A stretch of 64,000 nt of DNA from Clostridia bacterium (GTDB taxonomy: Bacteria > Bacillota > Clostridia > Oscillospirales > CAG-272). The translations under genes and the position numbers were made by a program. The notes under the pieces are model-generated. The model saw only the letters and a program-made list of their open reading frames with translations. It was not told where the DNA came from and did not search any database. The stretch is from assembly GCA_017452525.1 (NCBI GenBank), contig JAFTMG010000024.1, positions 989 to 64,988 on the forward strand, given 5' to 3'. This document shows positions 1 through 9,904 of this stretch, one piece after another. How positions within the stretch are numbered: the first letter of the stretch is position 1; each line of letters starts with the position of its first letter.

Positions 1-2146
1 ATCCAAGGATGCCGCCAAGCAAACAAAACAGTACGCAGCATATACCAACGATCAGTAAATTTCTGCGGTTGTGTCCCCTCTTCAAGCTATCCGACATATC
101 CCACTGAACCAGAAAAGCCGTGGTCTGCATCGAAAGCAGGCTCAGATAGTAGGCATTGCCATCGGAGGCTTGTCCGGAGGTATTATAATAAATGAATAGA
201 AAAGCAATTAAAGTCAAGACACCCGCCGCGATCGCTTCGGTTACCGTTCCGCCAAACAAGTACCTTTTGGAAGTATTTGGCGTTGGTTCATGGCTGACAC
301 GTGTCAGGAAAAGCCAAACAAAAAACAGATCTACAAACAGTCCGCTGAATAAAATGCGAAGTGACGGCACGGTATACAACCCGATCAACATAGAAGGAAG
401 GAGCATAACCGCCCGCAGCACAAGTGTATACAGTAGATACCGTGTCATATCGGTCAGATTACGGGCAGTATCCTCGGCGGTGTGTAGGGTATGCAGGATG
501 GAGGAAATACCGCCGTAACGACGTGAAGCACACGGAATCAGTACGTCTGCCTTTTGTCGCATACGCTGAGTAGCCACGTCCTCACGCCCACGACTTATCA
601 TGGGAGAACGCTCTCTTTCTCTGTCGGAATCGGTATAAACCGAAATATCATCCACGCAGGCAAAGCTGACATCGGCTTGCTTGAGCGCGGCATATTCCTC
701 GGGGCTGTTTCCCAAAAGCCCCACTTTCTTCCCCGATTTTTGCAATGTGATCATCAGTTCTCTCAACTCTTCGTTGGAAAAACCGCAATATGCAAGATAT
801 TTTCCCCATCCGGATGTGATTTTTCGATTTTCGGCACGAAACCGAGAAGCCAGGGCGATCTGTGAGCGGGAGGATATCAGAGCGGAGCGAATGATATAGG
901 TAACAGACCGACTGCTTTCCGTTTCCAAAAAGATGATTGGAGTGATTCCGAGCTCTTTCAGCTGCCTCAGGCAGTCCTCACGACCCGCAAGAAACGCCTC
1001 ACTCATGGCAAGCTTCAATTCCTGTTTATGTATTTCCGACTCCTGCTCTCCTCTGCTCACAGATCGTGATGCGGTCTCGGATTCGTGCTCGGGATAATAG
1101 GAAAACGCTTGTGAACCGAGCAGAAACAGAACGTCGATATCGGAGAGCCGATCCGTTTCCTTGTCGGTTTTGATCAGCGCTGTGTCTCCGTTCCCCTTGG
1201 CGGCATAAGCACGGTATATTCCGATTGCCTGCCCCAGCTTCAACACGGTATCCATATTCCCCGCAGGATTTGCCAGACAGATACATAAAAGTGAGGAAAA
1301 AAGCAGCGGCAAGCTCTCGGCATTCTTGCCGATCAATAGACAAAGAAACACAAGCGGAATGGTTGCGAGCAATAGCCCGACCTGCAAAACGGCTACGGCT
1401 TTTCTGATTCGCTTTGCCGTTTTCGGACACGACTGTCCGCTACGTATAAAATAGCCGCCCTGCAAGGCGCCGATATAGGTGTGCATCCCTGCTTCCACCA
1501 CAAGCCCCTTGATCGATCCGCTTTCTATGACAGATCCGCCATAAATCATATTGATATGTGTACTGATATCATTCTCCGTAGAAACGGATACCTCATCGGC
1601 GGCAGATTTCAACGAACGAATATACTGTGCTTCGCCCTTTCTATCTCCGAGATAATCCAAAACACGGACGCGGTCTGCCGTAACGAGGCGAATATCGCAG
1701 GGGGCAACGTCACCATGCTCCAATTCGATCAGATCTCCCGGAACCAGCTTGGAATAGTGCAACAAAAACATCTGTCCTTCTCGTATAACACGCACCGGCG
1801 GAATCATCGCTTTGGCGGGAACGCGCAGGACTCTTCCTGACCAGACATCAGCCACCACCAAAAACAAAATGTACAGAACGGTAAAGGTAAGAAAAATGCC
1901 TCCGTAAAGCGGTTGCTTGAAAAAGATCAACAGCAGACCCAATACGATCAATAATATGATCGACGGCTGCATGATCACCTCTCGGACACAATCTACGGGG
2001 GCGGCATGTGACGACTGAAAAAAATTGTTTTCGCCAATCTTTTGCAGGCGCGCTCTCGCCGCCTTCCGGGAAAGACCGGAGGCGGCGGAGGTATTCAGTT
2101 TCTTTTCTGTCTCACTCAAGGAGAGCGCAGTCCATTTTTCACTCAT
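1..2146 (-). CDS. P-type cation-transport ATPase-like membrane protein with degenerate catalytic motifs (3' end runs off the window)
   Basis: Hand translation from ATG at 2146 is open to the window edge (715 codons). It shows Cation_ATPase_N-like MSEKWTALSLSETEKKLNTSAASGLSRKAARARLQKIGEN, A-domain VRVIREG..LVPGDLIELEHGDVAPCDIRL and NMIYGGSVIESG, then ALKQADV and C-terminal TM helices. It is not in the ORF track because there is no stop in the window. Confidence 0.85.
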   Translation of the reverse strand, partial: MSEKWTALSLSETEKKLNTSAASGLSRKAARARLQKIGENNFFQSSHAAPVDCVREVIMQPSIILLIVLGLLLIFFKQPLYGGIFLTFTVLYILFLVVADVWSGRVLRVPAKAMIPPVRVIREGQMFLLHYSKLVPGDLIELEHGDVAPCDIRLVTADRVRVLDYLGDRKGEAQYIRSLKSAADEVSVSTENDISTHINMIYGGSVIESGSIKGLVVEAGMHTYIGALQGGYFIRSGQSCPKTAKRIRKAVAVLQVGLLLATIPLVFLCLLIGKNAESLPLLFSSLLCICLANPAGNMDTVLKLGQAIGIYRAYAAKGNGDTALIKTDKETDRLSDIDVLFLLGSQAFSYYPEHESETASRSVSRGEQESEIHKQELKLAMSEAFLAGREDCLRQLKELGITPIIFLETESSRSVTYIIRSALISSRSQIALASRFRAENRKITSGWGKYLAYCGFSNEELRELMITLQKSGKKVGLLGNSPEEYAALKQADVSFACVDDISVYTDSDRERERSPMISRGREDVATQRMRQKADVLIPCASRRYGGISSILHTLHTAEDTARNLTDMTRYLLYTLVLRAVMLLPSMLIGLYTVPSLRILFSGLFVDLFFVWLFLTRVSHEPTPNTSKRYLFGGTVTEAIAAGVLTLIAFLFIYYNTSGQASDGNAYYLSLLSMQTTAFLVQWDMSDSLKRGHNRRNLLIVGICCVLFCLLGGILG

Positions 2147-2152
2147 GATCCA

Positions 2153-4492
2153 TTATAAGCACGTGATCTTCAAGCTCTCGCCATTCTTCTGTACGGAAAT
2201 CGAGATCTGTGAGATCTTGTGATGATAGTCGGCAATGATCTGCTCTGCAAGCGGATCTTCGATATGGGTCTGAATAAAGCGGCGCATATTTCTCGCACCG
2301 AATTTACGCGAATAGGAGTGGGAGGCGATCCACGCCACCGCATCCTCGGAGACGTGAAGCGTGAGCCCTTTCTCGCACAGTGCGTCCTTCAACTCGCCCA
2401 ACATGATATTGGCAATGCGAACGAAATCATTTTCATCCAGTGAACGGAAGGTTAGGATCTCATCCACACGGTTCAAAAACTCGGGGCGGAGGAAGGAGGA
2501 GAGTGCCTTTTCAGTTTGTGCTTGCGCCTGCTGCCTCTCCGATTCGCCAAAGCCTGCCGAGGAGCCGCTATGGTCGGAGCCGGCATTGGTCGTCATCACG
2601 ATAACGGTATTTTCAAAATTGACCGTCTTTCCGTGCGCGTCGGTAATACGACCGTCATCCAGGATCTGCAACAAAATATTCAAAACATCGGGATGCGCCT
2701 TTTCTATCTCGTCAAACAGAATGACCGAGTAGGGGCGACGGCGGATCTTTTCCGTCAACTGTCCCGCCTCATCATAGCCAACGTATCCGGGAGGCGCTCC
2801 GATAATGCGGGAGACCGAGTGCTTCTCCATAAATTCTGACATATCCAATCGGATCAGCGTTTCGGGGGAATGGAAGAGATCGTTTGCCAGCACCTTGACC
2901 AGCTCTGTTTTTCCGACACCGGTCGGTCCCGCGAAAATGAAGGACACGGGTTTTCTCTTATAGGAAACGCCGGCGCGGTTGCGCTTGATCGCGCGAGTTA
3001 CGGCGCTGACAGCCTCGTTCTGACCGATGATACGTTTCAGTAATCGGGTTTCAAGATTTTCCAGCCGCTCAAACTCGTCCTCTTTGACTGTAGACGCAGG
3101 CACACCGGTCCATATCTCGATCACCTCGGCAAGATTGGCAGAAGTCAGAACCACCTGCTCGCAAAGTGGCTCGATCTCATTCAATCGGGTGGAGAGCTTG
3201 AGCTCCTTCTCCTTGATCTTTGCCAGCTTTTCGTAGCGTGCCTGCTCCAAGCGTTCATCCGTCACCGTTTCAGCCTCGCACGCTTCCCTTTCCGTTTTCA
3301 ACGAGATCAATTCGTCACGGATCTTGGCAGATTTGTTCAGCTCTGCGCAATTCAACGAAAGGTTTGCCGCTGCCTCATCCAACAGGTCAATGGCTTTGTC
3401 AGGCAGAAAGCGGTCTGTGATATAGCGTTCCGATAGGGTGACTGCCTGACGAAGAAGCTCGTCGGGAATGCGGATGCTGTGGAACTTTTCGTAATAGTGC
3501 TTGATCCCGCGAAGCATTTCCACCGTTTCATCCATAGAAGGCTCTGCTACCATCACGGGCTGGAAGCGGCGCTCCAACGCGGTATCCTTTTCGATATACT
3601 TGCGATATTCTGTCAGCGTTGTCGCACCGATCACCTGCACCTCTCCGCGGGAAAGAGCGGGCTTGAGAATATTGGCGGCATTGACGCTACCCTCGGAATC
3701 TCCGGCGCCGACGATATTGTGTACCTCATCGATCACAAGGATCACGTTTCCTGCTTCCTTTACCTCATTCAGCAGACCGAGGATGCGGGACTCAAACTGA
3801 CCGCGGAACTGTGTTCCTGCCACCAGTGCTGTCAGATCCACAAGATATACTTCTTTTCCTTTCAAACGATATGGCACGGTTTCTTCAACGATCCGTTGTG
3901 AAAGTGCCTCGGCAATTGCCGTTTTGCCCACACCGGGCTCACCGATCAAACAAGGATTGTTCTTTTGACGTCGGCTCAGAATCTGGATCACGCGCGCCAG
4001 TTCACGCTCTCGTCCCACGATCCGATCCAGCTTGCCTTCCGCTGCGGCACGGGTCAGATTTCGGCAATAGGTCGTGAGAAACTTGTATTTTTTGTCTTTT
4101 TTATCGGACTTCTTTTCCTTGGAGCTCCCGCCGTTTTTGCCCTTTTGCTCTTGTTCGGCAGGAAGATCGGCATTGTTTTTTTGAAGTGCCGCGCTCTCTT
4201 CCATCAGCTTTTGGAAATCGATTGTGGGAGCTCCTCCCTCTACAATGTTACCGTTTTCGTCGAGAGGCACCTCCCCATTGGAGAACATCTCGTTTACCTC
4301 GTCCTCCATTTCCGCCAGCTGCTCGGCAGTCATTCCAAGCTTACCAAGCGCATCGCTCATCAAATTTTCAATAGGAAGTCCCAGCTCCTTTGCGCAATGA
4401 AGACAAAGCCCCTCACCGCGCTTCTGATTATTTTCTATCTTGGTAACAAACACCACCGCCATACGCTTGTGGCATCTTGTGCATATGATCAT
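2153..4492 (-). CDS. Class I Clp/Hsp100 ATPase with N-terminal Zn-binding motif (ClpE-like)
   Basis: Two AAA+ modules (GEPGVGKT, GPTGVGKT; DEIEKAHP); N-terminal CxxC..CxxC (CTRC, CLHC); AGF loop resembling the ClpP-binding motif. Confidence 0.92.
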   Translation of the reverse strand: MIICTRCHKRMAVVFVTKIENNQKRGEGLCLHCAKELGLPIENLMSDALGKLGMTAEQLAEMEDEVNEMFSNGEVPLDENGNIVEGGAPTIDFQKLMEESAALQKNNADLPAEQEQKGKNGGSSKEKKSDKKDKKYKFLTTYCRNLTRAAAEGKLDRIVGRERELARVIQILSRRQKNNPCLIGEPGVGKTAIAEALSQRIVEETVPYRLKGKEVYLVDLTALVAGTQFRGQFESRILGLLNEVKEAGNVILVIDEVHNIVGAGDSEGSVNAANILKPALSRGEVQVIGATTLTEYRKYIEKDTALERRFQPVMVAEPSMDETVEMLRGIKHYYEKFHSIRIPDELLRQAVTLSERYITDRFLPDKAIDLLDEAAANLSLNCAELNKSAKIRDELISLKTEREACEAETVTDERLEQARYEKLAKIKEKELKLSTRLNEIEPLCEQVVLTSANLAEVIEIWTGVPASTVKEDEFERLENLETRLLKRIIGQNEAVSAVTRAIKRNRAGVSYKRKPVSFIFAGPTGVGKTELVKVLANDLFHSPETLIRLDMSEFMEKHSVSRIIGAPPGYVGYDEAGQLTEKIRRRPYSVILFDEIEKAHPDVLNILLQILDDGRITDAHGKTVNFENTVIVMTTNAGSDHSGSSAGFGESERQQAQAQTEKALSSFLRPEFLNRVDEILTFRSLDENDFVRIANIMLGELKDALCEKGLTLHVSEDAVAWIASHSYSRKFGARNMRRFIQTHIEDPLAEQIIADYHHKISQISISVQKNGESLKITCL

Positions 4493-8172: not shown

Positions 8173-9030
8173 TCAAATGCCGAACAGATGCGCCAGCTCC
8201 TGCTCTGCCCGATCCACAGTATAAATACTGCGGTCCACATCGATCCCGCGGGATCGGAGCAGCCAGATCAGCTTGGTGATCTCCGGAATATCCAGCCCCG
8301 CATCGATCAACTCGTCGGAGCGTGCGAAGATCTCATCGCGGGGACCGTGCATCCGCACCTTGGCATGATCCATCACGATGATATCATCGCAATAGCGCGC
8401 CATGTCCTCCATGCTATGGCTGACGATCAGCACGGTGGCTCCCGATTCTTTTTGATATTCGCAGATACCGTTCAGAATGGCATCACGCCCCATCGGGTCG
8501 AGACCCGCGGCAGGCTCATCCAGAACAAGCACCTCCGGGCGCATGGCAATAATGCCTGCCAATGCCGCGCGTCGCTTTTGTCCGCCCGAAAGGTCGAAGG
8601 GTGATTTGGTCAGCATTTCCGGTGAAAGACCGACAAAACGAGCCGCCTCCGCCACTCTGCTGCGGATCTCATCTTCGTCCAGCCCCATATTGCGCGGACC
8701 GTAGGCAATATCCGCCTCCACGGTTTCCTCAAACAACTGGTATTCGGGATATTGCATTACCAAGCCCACACGGAAACGGATCTTACCGATCTCCTTGGGC
8801 TTCTCCCAGATGTCCACGCCGTCCAAAAGGATCCTTCCTTCCATGGGGCGGGTCAAGCCGTTGAACAGCTGGACCATGGTGGATTTACCTGAACCGGTAT
8901 GTCCGATGATGCCGGTAACGGTTCCCGTACGGATATTCAGTGAAACGTCGTCCAACGCCTTGATCTCAAAAGGGGTCCCCTTGCTATAGGTATATGAGAC
9001 ATGCTCCAAAGATATTTTGATCTGATCCAT
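8173..9030 (-). CDS. ecfA2: ECF transporter ATPase A2
   Basis: GHTGSGKS, QYPEYQLFEETV, LSGGQ, DEPAAGLDP; start set at MDQIK (9030). Confidence 0.93.
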   Translation of the reverse strand: MDQIKISLEHVSYTYSKGTPFEIKALDDVSLNIRTGTVTGIIGHTGSGKSTMVQLFNGLTRPMEGRILLDGVDIWEKPKEIGKIRFRVGLVMQYPEYQLFEETVEADIAYGPRNMGLDEDEIRSRVAEAARFVGLSPEMLTKSPFDLSGGQKRRAALAGIIAMRPEVLVLDEPAAGLDPMGRDAILNGICEYQKESGATVLIVSHSMEDMARYCDDIIVMDHAKVRMHGPRDEIFARSDELIDAGLDIPEITKLIWLLRSRGIDVDRSIYTVDRAEQELAHLFGI

Positions 9031-9031
9031 G

Positions 9032-9904
9032 TTACTTCTCCCCCTTGCCTGCCAATGCGGCACAGATGGTATCGGCGCATTGCTCGGGTGTGGTGCAATC
9101 GCCGTCCAAGGAGATGCCGCGCTCGCGCAAACGGTGGATCAGTGCGGTCCCCTGAGGAACGTCCAGTCCATACTGCGCCAGCCGCTCTCCCTGGCTGAAG
9201 ATCTCGTTGGGAGTGCCGTCCATGGCAACCTTACCGTCATTGATGATAATGACGCGGTCGGCGCGCGCTGCTTCGTTCATATAATGTGTGATAGCGATGA
9301 CGGTAATATCGCGCTCACGGTTCAGCGTTTCGATCGTTTTGATCACGTCGCGGCGTCCGGAGGGATCCAGCATTGCGGTGGATTCATCGAAGATCATGCA
9401 TTCCGGCTGCATGGCGATGATGCCTGCAATCGCAATACGCTGCTTTTGACCGCCCGAAAGACGGTGAGGCTCGTGCCCCGCGTACGCGGTCATGCCAACC
9501 GCCTCCAGGGCGTCGTCCACACGGCGGCGGATCTCCTCAGAGGGCAAGCCCAGATTTTCGGGACCAAAGGCGATATCCTCCTCCACAATGGTAGCCACCA
9601 GCTGATTATCGGGGTTTTGAAACACCATGCCGATCTTCCGCCGAAGTGCAAACACATCGTCGTCCGTCATATCCGGCGAGGTGATATCCTTTCCGTCAAT
9701 GAGGATCTGCCCGCTGTTCGCCTCAAGGATCATATTCAATAATTTGGCAAAGGTGGATTTGCCTGAGCCGTTATGACCGAGGATCACAACGTATTCTCCA
9801 CGATGGATATCCAGCGTCAGATCCCGAAGGACCGGCACCTCACGCCCATCGTCATCCTGATAGGAATAACAAAGGTTTTTGACTTGAATAAAGGGTTGCG
9901 ACAT
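9032..9904 (-). CDS. ecfA1: ECF transporter ATPase A1
   Basis: GHNGSGKST, VFQNPDNQ, LSGGQKQR, DESTAMLDP. Confidence 0.94.
   Translation of the reverse strand: MSQPFIQVKNLCYSYQDDDGREVPVLRDLTLDIHRGEYVVILGHNGSGKSTFAKLLNMILEANSGQILIDGKDITSPDMTDDDVFALRRKIGMVFQNPDNQLVATIVEEDIAFGPENLGLPSEEIRRRVDDALEAVGMTAYAGHEPHRLSGGQKQRIAIAGIIAMQPECMIFDESTAMLDPSGRRDVIKTIETLNRERDITVIAITHYMNEAARADRVIIINDGKVAMDGTPNEIFSQGERLAQYGLDVPQGTALIHRLRERGISLDGDCTTPEQCADTICAALAGKGEK

What the first reader, a model, noticed from the sequence alone, without database searches (positions are those of the whole stretch)
1..2146. Intact P-type ATPase pseudo-pump: all catalytic motifs lost and N-domain deleted
Seen: an uninterrupted frame of at least 715 codons that follows a type II P-type ATPase in order, with each motif replaced. 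TGES is absent (LDYLGDRKGEAQ), PEGL reads NPAGN, the phosphorylation site DKTGT reads LGSQA (about 1106-1120, no Asp), TGD reads FLE, and GDGVND reads GNSPEE (about 695-712). Only about 50 residues separate the DKTGT position from the 'GITPIIF' strand, where canonical pumps have over 200 residues carrying the N-domain. Known: these motifs are essential for the phosphoenzyme cycle. Inference: an open frame with clean loss of the whole catalytic set looks like a selected pseudoenzyme (passive conduit, sensor, scaffold or regulator of an active pump) rather than random decay.
Basis: partly seen in the sequence, partly recalled or inferred. Interest (0 to 1): 0.75.

Follow-up and report, generated by a model that had tools for sequence, protein, structure and literature searches.

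The report
Dead ion-pump relative kept by selection
This gut bacterium keeps an intact gene for a relative of calcium-type ion pumps that has lost every residue needed to use ATP, and even the whole ATP-binding domain, so it must do some non-pumping job that is still unknown.

Summary
Window 2..2146 (minus strand) is the first 715 codons of an unbroken 757-codon gene. It is collinear with P2-type ATPases. TGES, PEGL, DKTGT, TGD and GDGVND are all replaced, and a 25-residue linker stands where the about 165-residue N domain should be.

It is not decay. 18 cluster representatives at 43-53% identity share the losses and the length. Four other gut samples gave 15 synonymous against 11 non-synonymous differences and no indel in the gene. 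The AlphaFold model matches solved pumps (hSPCA1, Z 25.4, 635 residues aligned).

The short form is nested in a larger clade of about 900-residue homologues that keep an N-domain fold but are equally dead. These long forms were found in 99 of 400 other genomes of the same taxonomic family. All 21 degenerate loci examined hold a zinc-ribbon ClpE-like AAA+ gene, directly upstream wherever gene order could be read.

What it does is unknown. My best guess is a non-transporting membrane scaffold or regulator. I found no description in print. This is a new variant of a known kind.

The parts
2..2146 (-). First 715 of 757 codons of the pseudo-P-type ATPase gene. The last 42 codons and the stop lie left of the window, at G000:C152:861-989.
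   Evidence: No stop or frameshift.
1931..2134 (-). N-terminal segment (residues 5-72) matching Cation_ATPase_N, running into M1. It is among the best-conserved parts of the family (W5, L17, T19, G24, L25, K28, A30, R33).
   Evidence: PF00690, 2.4e-7.
1412..1834 (-). A (actuator) domain, residues 105-245. The core motifs are conserved (P116, R122, G137, D138, G145, D146, D151, R153, N199, G210). The TGES loop is replaced.
   Evidence: PF00122, 3.2e-13.
1625..1660 (-). LDYLGDRKGEAQ at the TGES position. There is no TGE, and the clade has a family-typical YLG plus a 4-residue insertion.
1256..1270 (-). M4 NPAGN at the PEGL position. The ion-site Glu is replaced by Ala.
1106..1120 (-). LGSQA at the DKTGT position. 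The phosphorylated Asp is replaced by Leu.
1022..1096 (-). A 25-residue polar linker (residues 351-375) standing where the about 165-residue N domain lies in the paralogue. It has low pLDDT and is the least conserved part.
467..1021 (-). Remnant P domain (residues 376-560). It has an alternating strand/helix pattern, LET at the TGD position (920-928), GNSPEE at the GDGVND position (695-712), and a family-specific insert of about 25 residues before RGREDVA.
   Evidence: (pieces 391-496 and 548-754 align to LMCA1).
413..415 (-). Arg578 in M5, at the column of the M5 Glu of Ca pumps (SERCA Glu771 by my recollection). It is Arg in 86% of 168 family members.
329..331 (-). Asp606 in M6, at the column of the M6 Asp of canonical pumps. 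It is Asp in 76% of 168 family members.
2..466 (-). M5 to M9, and the start of the M9-M10 loop (residues 561-715). M10 lies outside the window.
   Evidence: (hydropathy).
2153..4492 (-). ClpE-like double AAA+ gene with an N-terminal CxxC...CxxC zinc ribbon and no Clp_N domain. Its stop codon lies 6 nt before the pseudo-pump's ATG, and it is the conserved upstream neighbour.

Best explanation
Shown:
- The gene encodes a full-length, folded descendant of a P2-type (Ca-ATPase-like) cation pump that cannot run the phosphoenzyme cycle.
- The phosphorylated Asp, the TGES dephosphorylation loop, the TGD and GDGVND Mg/phosphate-binding loops and the M4 PEGL glutamate are all replaced.
- The nucleotide-binding N domain has been cut out and replaced by a 25-residue linker.
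- The gene is kept by purifying selection.
- It is the N-domain-less branch of a large clade of equally dead homologues of about 900 residues, found in gut Clostridia of one taxonomic family.
- In that family the gene always sits directly behind a zinc-ribbon ClpE-like AAA+ gene and usually before ylmC/ymxH and rpsB.

Inferred:
- The protein no longer transports ions actively.
- The conserved Arg (M5) and Asp (M6) probably form a built-in ion pair that fills the former cation site.
- The strongly conserved N-terminal tail and A-domain surface then serve as a cytoplasmic interaction platform.
- So the protein acts as a non-enzymatic membrane scaffold or regulator, co-expressed with, and possibly working with, the ClpE-like unfoldase.

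I put about 0.9 on 'selected pseudoenzyme, not a pump and not a pseudogene'. I put about 0.35 on the scaffold/regulator mechanism.
For: Identity and losses:
- Pfam and NCBIfam match only the N-terminal half.
- Motif columns were read against six canonical pumps.
- A profile of the family hits LMCA1 best (9euq_A, 3.9e-22), in three collinear pieces.

Fold:
- The AF2 model has pLDDT 76.5 and pTM 0.76.
- Foldseek: MgtA 8uy7_A 4e-21, then SPCA1, LMCA1 and SERCA.
- VIA: hSPCA1 8iww, Z 25.4, rmsd 5.1, 635 aligned.
- The long form P0011 aligns over 820 residues (8iwp, Z 29.4), so its extra roughly 185 residues are the N domain.

Selection:
- All 18 short-form representatives in the alignment share the losses.
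- 15 synonymous against 11 non-synonymous differences, and no indel in the gene, in 4 runs.
- dN/dS is 0.044 for L011-L017 (dS 0.80) and 0.04-0.3 for other unsaturated long-form pairs.

Clade:
- 340 representatives score at E<=1e-30.
- Among the 146 further listed representatives, 0 have GDGxND. One has a DKTG string, at residue 699 of 928 and not in the DKTGT column, where that protein reads HKEGA.
- 28 degenerate rows fall on one side of a branch with SH-aLRT 100. The short forms are nested and sister to P0011/14/23.

Locus:
- The ClpE-like gene is present in 21 of 21 degenerate loci.
- By my own crude ORF calls it is directly upstream on the same strand in 19 of 21, with gaps of -85 to +52 nt. 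In the window the gap is 6 nt.
- 3 of 5 genomes scored as 'no match' still had a divergent dead copy at that spot.

Conserved parts:
- Arg578 in 86% and Asp606 in 76% of 168 members. The N-terminus and A-domain core are the most conserved regions.
Against: - No experiment bears on the function.
- The link to ClpE may be inherited gene order only. The whole block from an rRNA methyltransferase gene through ecfA-ecfA-ecfT, truA, DUF5711 and cvpA to clpE, the pseudo-pump, ylmC and rpsB is syntenic.
- ClpE-like genes exist without the pseudo-pump in 2 of 5 same-family genomes (G003, G005). They also exist without it in 5 of 5 genomes of other families of the order, though one of those contigs ends 835 nt after clpE.
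- The protein evolves much faster than its neighbour. So constraint is loose.
- The within-species differences come from low-depth contigs and number only 26 sites.
- Most between-species dS values are saturated, and the dN/dS values are for long forms, not the short clade.
- The Arg-Asp contact is inferred from alignment. I had no model coordinates.
- Transcription is not shown. One RNA-library run holds matching contigs, but such libraries can hold DNA.
Confidence: 0.4

Rival explanations
1. Passive conduit: the dead pump has become an ungated or gated leak, uniporter or channel for H+ or a cation. It would use the retained M6 Asp with the M5 Arg as a gate, with no ATP involved.
For: - The ten-helix membrane domain is retained.
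- Asp606 sits at the column of the M6 Asp that is the H+ acceptor/donor of P3A pumps. A basic residue in M5 lies next to it.
- The review PMC10654040 (passages only) describes the Asp684/Arg655 pair of AHA2.
Against: - The other ion-site residues are gone: the M4 Glu becomes Ala, the M5 Asn becomes Leu or Gln, and the M6 Asn and Thr become Gly and Val.
- The family's Arg is one position off the P3A Arg in my alignment.
- M7-M10 are the least conserved domain apart from the linker.
- Conservation is highest in the cytoplasmic N-terminus and the A domain, which a simple pore would not need.
Confidence: 0.15
2. Regulator or partner of the genome's active P2-type pump: a dead paralogue that pairs with the intact Ca-ATPase-like enzyme and tunes it.
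For: - The genome has one intact paralogue with all motifs (C23, 891 aa).
- The best Foldseek hit is an entry titled as an MgtA dimer (8uy7), so pumps of this kind can pair.
Against: - The two genes are on different contigs and are not linked.
- The dead gene's conserved neighbour is clpE-like, not a pump.
- G003 keeps a canonical pump but has no dead copy.
- No co-occurrence test was done.
Confidence: 0.12
3. Slowly decaying relic: the gene has no function and is open only by chance or through recent loss of function. Alternatively, the shortened form is an assembly error.
For: - Divergence is fast relative to neighbours.
- Presence within the taxonomic family is patchy.
- The Shine-Dalgarno sequence is weak, GGA only.
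Against: - 19 short-form clusters at 43-99% identity are all open, 18 of them within 747-762 aa and one of 644 aa.
- Hundreds of long-form representatives are open at about 900 aa.
- There is a synonymous excess and no indel in the gene.
- dN/dS is well below 1.
- The model is confident.
- Independent contigs span the N-domain junction and the clpE/pump junction (records 21 and 15).
Confidence: 0.03

Closest known systems
Bacterial P2A Ca2+-ATPases (Listeria LMCA1, PDB 9euq/6zhf/9evc) and eukaryotic SPCA1/SERCA
   Same: - Collinear sequence and the same overall fold: N-terminal tail, M1-M2, A-domain barrel, M3-M4, Rossmann-like P domain, M5-M10.
- LMCA1 is the best sequence hit in the PDB (3.9e-22).
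- hSPCA1 gives Z 25.4.
- The M6 Asp is kept.
   Different: - No phosphorylatable Asp, no TGES, no TGD, no GDGVND and no M4 Glu.
- The M5 Glu is replaced by Arg.
- The N domain is deleted.
- It therefore cannot be an ATP-driven pump.
Unnamed clade of about 900-residue degenerate P-type ATPase homologues of Bacillota (for example P0011, P0023, P0024-P0029, P0143-P0288; an ESM Atlas cluster of 1543 members called 'hypothetical protein')
   Same: - Same motif losses, same M5 Arg / M6 Asp pair, and the same locus behind the ClpE-like gene.
- The window's protein is nested inside this clade.
   Different: - The long forms keep a folded N domain: 820 residues of P0011 align to hSPCA1.
- That N domain has lost most nucleotide-contact motifs.
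- The window's branch has removed it altogether.
P3A plasma-membrane H+-ATPases (AHA2, Pma1)
   Same: - An acidic residue in M6 paired with an Arg in M5 in place of a multi-ligand cation site (PMC10654040, passages).
- Pma1 7nxf gives Z 25.2.
   Different: - P3A pumps keep all catalytic motifs and the N domain.
- The Arg is one position away in my alignment.
- In the tree the four H+-ATPase-named rows sit with the canonical pumps, not with this clade.
Degenerate P4-ATPase modules fused to guanylate cyclases in alveolates
   Same: A P-type ATPase-derived membrane module kept for a role other than classical pumping. I saw only the search listing and abstract of PMC13466520. That some of these modules are catalytically degenerate is my recollection.
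   Different: Eukaryotic, P4 type, fused to an enzyme domain and with the N domain kept. Here the protein is a stand-alone bacterial P2-type derivative.

Membership tests
P-type ATPase superfamily (homology and fold) | Sequence match to the E1-E2_ATPase (A domain with flanking helices) and Cation_ATPase_N families above Pfam's cut-offs | tested here: met
   PF00122 scores 50 bits (cut-off 28.1). PF00690 scores 30.7 bits (cut-off 20.4)..
P-type ATPase superfamily (homology and fold) | Overall architecture of ten helices plus A and P domains, superposable on solved pumps | tested here: met
   Model pLDDT is 76.5. 8iww gives Z 25.4 with 635 aligned. Foldseek E-values are 4e-21 to 1e-16 for the 50 rows listed.
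P-type ATPase superfamily (working enzyme) | Phosphorylated Asp in DKTGT | tested here: not met
   LGSQA occupies that column. No Asp is present there in any of the 41 degenerate rows aligned.
P-type ATPase superfamily (working enzyme) | TGES (TGE) dephosphorylation loop in the A domain | tested here: not met
   YLGDRKGEAQ occupies that position.
P-type ATPase superfamily (working enzyme) | TGD and GDGxND loops of the P domain; HAD-family match | tested here: not met
   The loops read LET and GNSPEE. There is no PF00702 match at E<=1.
P-type ATPase superfamily (working enzyme) | Nucleotide-binding N domain | tested here: not met
   A 25-residue linker replaces about 165 residues. There is no PF13246 match. 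635 residues align to hSPCA1, against 820 in the long form.
P2A Ca2+-ATPase (NCBIfam TIGR01116, TIGR01522) | Score above the curated cut-off, and Ca-site ligands in M4, M5 and M6 | tested here: not met
   The scores are 38.6 and 65.4 bits against cut-offs of 703 and 798. Only the M6 Asp is kept.
P3A H+-ATPase-like Arg/Asp proton site | M6 Asp and M5 Arg at the equivalent columns | tested here: inconclusive
   The Asp column matches. The Arg lies one column away in a MAFFT alignment without structural check.
Degenerate Bacillota clade (unnamed) | Groups with the dead homologues to the exclusion of canonical pumps, and shares their locus | tested here: met
   The tree of 53 chosen rows puts the degenerate rows on one side of a branch with SH-aLRT 100. 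The ClpE-like neighbour is present in 21 of 21 degenerate loci.

The most novel reading that the evidence does not exclude
The dead pump is the membrane half of a two-part machine. Its P-type-ATPase-derived helix bundle would give a lateral gate or docking site in the membrane, and the co-transcribed zinc-ribbon ClpE-like AAA+ unfoldase would supply the ATP-driven pulling. This would be a bacterial system for extracting or checking membrane proteins. The job that P5A pumps do with their own ATP site would here have been handed to a separate motor, which would explain why first the catalytic residues and then the whole N domain could be lost.
Probability: 0.1. Interest if true: 0.85.

Novelty: new variant of a known kind. 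Interest (0 to 1): 0.62.

Why it matters
P-type ATPases are defined by their aspartyl-phosphate cycle, and I found no paper describing a bacterial family that keeps the fold but drops the chemistry. My full-text searches and term look-ups in one review found none. Subscription journals and TCDB were not searchable.

Here a whole clade is kept under selection in animal-gut Clostridia: 340 representatives at 50% identity at E<=1e-30, and an Atlas cluster of 1543 members. One branch has gone further and removed the ATP-binding domain. That gives a natural series: working pump, then dead four-domain form, then dead three-domain form. The series could be used to ask what a pump scaffold can do without energy input. 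It also flags that automatic names for members of this family are probably wrong. One source names P0019 and its cluster mates 'magnesium-transporting ATPase (P-type)'.

Tried and rejected
- **Binding to ClpE.** Complex prediction with the whole protein (alignment A1) against residues 1-160 of the ClpE-like protein (alignment A2) returned 'no answer', score 0.00. It counts neither for nor against binding.
- **Genome-contig scans.** Scans with the protein and with A1 found no relative.
- **Metagenome scan.** It gave only L034, a short form at 44% identity, and L035. L035 proved to be a canonical pump with DKTG and GDGxND, so I dropped it from the context counts.
- **Close short-form orthologues in reference genomes.** None were found. 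The genus holds only G000. There were 0 of 400 matches in the order at 1e-60. So dN/dS on the short clade itself could not be computed, and with L034 dS would be saturated.
- **Organism names.** The listing of cluster members gave none.
- **CtsR operator.** A CtsR-operator-like repeat, with the consensus recalled from memory, was sought in the window. It gave 5 matches with 3 mismatches each, none near the operon and no more than in shuffles.
- **RNA families.** Rfam found only one tRNA in the window and no riboswitch near the gene.
- **Terminators.** No convincing intrinsic terminator lies between clpE-like, the pseudo-pump and ylmC.
- **Sporulation link.** SpoIVA is present in 5 of 5 genomes tested, with or without the dead pump, so it does not discriminate.
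- **Transcription.** RNA-library run X7 holds contigs matching parts of the gene. No silent control stretch was laid, so transcription is not shown.
- **Model coordinates.** They were not available, so the Arg578-Asp606 distance could not be measured.
- **First tree run.** It timed out and was resumed.
Full report
**1. What is in the sequence**

On the minus strand, window 2..2146 is an open frame of 715 codons. It starts at an ATG and runs off the left end of the window. The window is G000:C152:989-64988. In the contig the frame goes on to a stop codon, giving a 757-residue protein (P0115) with no internal stop. The genome is a draft of 160 contigs, 80% complete with 0.4% contamination.

**2. 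It is a P-type ATPase homologue without the chemistry**

- Pfam finds Cation_ATPase_N and E1-E2_ATPase above their cut-offs, but no HAD, N-domain or C-terminal family.
- NCBIfam models of type IIA, IIB, IIC, IID, IIIA and IIIB pumps match only the first 230-310 residues, far below their cut-offs.
- I aligned the protein with the genome's own intact paralogue (contig C23, 891 aa, all motifs present) and five other canonical pumps. TGES is replaced by YLGDRKGEAQ, PEGL by PAGN, DKTGT by LGSQA, TGD by LET and GDGVND by GNSPEE.
- The N domain is missing. Residues 351-375 stand where paralogue residues about 353-517 lie. The DKTGT position and the next P-domain strand are 57 residues apart, against 197 in the paralogue.
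- A profile of the family hits the Listeria Ca-ATPase LMCA1 best among solved structures (3.9e-22). The match comes in three collinear pieces covering the N-terminal half, the second half of the P domain, and M5-M10.

**3. Fold**

An AlphaFold2 model built from an 18-sequence alignment has mean pLDDT 76.5 and pTM 0.76. The low-confidence stretches are the first 47 residues, 220-237 and the 350-381 linker.

- Foldseek against the PDB gives MgtA, SPCA1, LMCA1, Pma1, PMCA, Na,K-ATPase and SERCA, at E 4e-21 to 1e-16 for the 50 rows listed.
- VIA-align gives hSPCA1 8iww at Z 25.4 (rmsd 5.1, 635 aligned). Pma1 7nxf gives Z 25.2 and MgtA 8uy7 gives Z 24.9.
- The ESM Atlas holds the same sequence. Its own model matches P-type Ca transporters at TM 0.75-0.79.
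- A hydropathy scan finds nine clear membrane segments and one weaker segment, placed as in a ten-helix pump.

**4. Not decay**

- A word-indexed search found 19 short-form clusters (644-762 aa; one at 99% identity, the rest at 43-53%). It also found three long forms (886-891 aa) at 49-54% identity over the shared parts.
- All 18 short representatives that I aligned show the same replacements. Family-typical versions are YLG, LCLANLxG, LGxQAFS and YCGFS, plus an RGREDVA insert.
- Contigs of four other animal-gut runs were laid on the gene. They showed 26 single-base differences and no indel inside it. The only indel was in the spacer downstream.
- Of those differences, 15 are synonymous and 11 are not. 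That gives pN/pS 0.24 and a one-sided binomial p of 2.8e-4 against the share of synonymous sites. These are low-depth contigs, so the figure is rough.
- One contig spans the place where the N domain is missing, and another spans the clpE/pump junction (records 21 and 15).
- For long-form positional orthologues within genera, dN/dS (NG86) is 0.044 for the least saturated pair (L011-L017, dS 0.80). It is 0.04-0.3 wherever dS could be computed. Many pairs were saturated.

**5. The wider clade**

- An exhaustive profile search found 14,257 proteins at E<=0.001 and 340 at E<=1e-30. Among the 150 listed, only two are short-form representatives. Nearly all the others are about 900 residues long.
- Among the 146 further representatives, none has GDGxND. 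One has a DKTG string, at residue 699 of 928 and not in the DKTGT column, where that protein reads HKEGA.
- In a sample alignment of 41 degenerate rows, none has Asp in the DKTGT column.
- I chose 28 degenerate rows out of about 170 known and 25 canonical rows out of about 85 hits, and built a tree of these 53. It puts the degenerate rows on one side of a branch with SH-aLRT 100. The seven short forms are nested inside, sister to P0011, P0014 and P0023. The tree has long branches and uneven composition, so one origin is favoured but not proven.
- The long form P0011 models well (pLDDT 80.9). It aligns to hSPCA1 over 820 residues at Z 29.4, so it keeps a folded N domain. The positions of the canonical DPTE, PFDSxRK and KGAPE motifs are nevertheless changed in it.
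- The likely order of events is therefore loss of catalysis first, then excision of the now useless N domain in one lineage.

**6. Distribution**

- With the single protein at E<=1e-25, 99 of 400 other genomes of the same taxonomic family matched (34 of 97 genera, counting the window's own). All are long forms.
- All 31 loci fetched from these searches lacked both DKTG and GDGxND.
- The threshold misses divergent copies. Of five 'no match' genomes, three had a degenerate pump-like gene right behind clpE. Two had none: G003 carries only a canonical pump, and G005 none at all.
- In the order, matches were 3 of 25 genomes in the same family and 0 of 375 in 29 other families.
- In five genomes of five other families, a ClpE-like gene is present but no pump-like gene follows it. 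One of those contigs ends 835 nt downstream.
- Names that sources give to ClpE-like relatives point to Clostridia of the Ruminococcaceae/Oscillospiraceae kind.
- Runs holding the DNA are animal gut and faeces metagenomes, sheep among them, from 11 studies.

**7. Neighbourhood**

- The gene order in the window is: rRNA methyltransferase, ecfA, ecfA, ecfT, truA, DUF5711, cvpA-like, ClpE-like AAA+, pseudo-pump, ylmC/ymxH, rpsB.
- The ClpE-like gene is present in 21 of 21 degenerate loci by tblastn. ylmC is present in 18 and rpsB in 15.
- By my crude ORF calls, the ClpE-like gene is the direct upstream neighbour on the same strand in 19 of 21 loci, with gaps of -85 to +52 nt. The two misses are ORF-calling failures.
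- In the window, the clpE stop and the pump ATG are 6 nt apart, with only a GGA as a ribosome-binding site. No convincing terminator lies between the genes. Co-transcription is likely but not shown.
- The neighbour has an N-terminal CxxC...CxxC ribbon and two AAA+ modules, and no Clp_N domain. A conserved N-terminal zinc finger is described for the ClpE family in PMC3472708 (passages). I did not test membership with a ClpE model.

**8. What is conserved, and the proposed mechanism**

- Over 168 family members, the most conserved positions are in the N-terminal tail and the A-domain core. Others are two glycines after the P domain, Arg578 in M5 (86%) and Asp606 in M6 (76%).
- Within the short clade, the N-terminus (0.77), M3-M4 (0.75) and the A domain (0.71) are most conserved. 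The linker (0.30) and M7-M10 (0.53) are least conserved.
- Arg578 lies in the column of the M5 Glu of Ca pumps, and Asp606 in the column of the M6 Asp. P3A proton pumps have a comparable Arg/Asp pair (PMC10654040, passages), but their Arg is one column away in my alignment.
- I infer that the Arg-Asp pair fills the old cation site, and that the protein does not cycle or transport actively. Its conserved cytoplasmic surfaces would then bind something.
- The tightly linked ClpE-like unfoldase is the obvious candidate, but shared ancestry of gene order explains the linkage equally well, and ClpE-like genes do without the pump in other lineages.
- The rivals are a passive H+/cation path, a regulator of the intact paralogue, and plain decay. 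Only decay is contradicted by the data.

**9. Comparison with what is known, and verdict**

[quoted passage not shown] It fails every feature that defines a working member. I found no paper on such a bacterial family (searches; term look-up in a 2023 review). Papers outside the held library, and TCDB, could not be checked.

Earlier notes of this scan report dead P1B-type homologues in other phyla and a dead P2/P3-like protein in Giardia. I did not check them, but they suggest that pump-derived pseudoenzymes recur.

The function remains open. I rate this a new variant of a known kind, with interest 0.62.

Noticed in passing
window 2153-4492 (-): The upstream neighbour is a double-AAA+ Hsp100 with a ClpX/ClpE-style CxxC...CxxC zinc ribbon in place of Clp_N. 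It is 49-71% identical across the five other families of the order that were sampled. Most genomes also carry a second, canonical ClpB/ClpC-like paralogue.
   Followed up: partly
ESM Atlas hits (no window coordinates): Two clusters from Cyanobacteriota, of 629 and 653 residues, carry E1-E2_ATPase, Cation_ATPase_N and Cation_ATPase_C. No Hydrolase family is listed among the (at most three) shown for them. They may be another, independent set of shortened pump relatives.
   Followed up: no
L058 (G007:C5), L054, and the 1221-1338-aa open frames of genus g81: Some long-form members are much longer (1100-1340 residues). The one I read (L058) has low-complexity, charged insertions in the cytoplasmic part and near the C-terminus.
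   Followed up: no
P0030, P0034, P0036, P0043, P0047: A group of otherwise canonical pumps (some named Ca2+-transporting ATPase by a source) has Lys at the M5 column where Ca pumps have Glu and the dead clade has Arg.
   Followed up: no
L035 7986-10688 (+): A canonical pump on a 726-kb metagenome contig shares the dead family's N-terminal LNTSAASGLS motif. It may be close to the working ancestor type.
   Followed up: partly
window 8173-9063 and 9032-9904 (-): By my ORF calls, the two ECF-transporter ATPase genes overlap by 32 nt.
   Followed up: no
L001 495-791 (-), just left of the window: A YlmC/YmxH-family sporulation gene with a strong ribosome-binding site follows the pseudo-pump after 69 nt. 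SpoIVA is present in the genome, so the organism is probably a spore former.
   Followed up: partly
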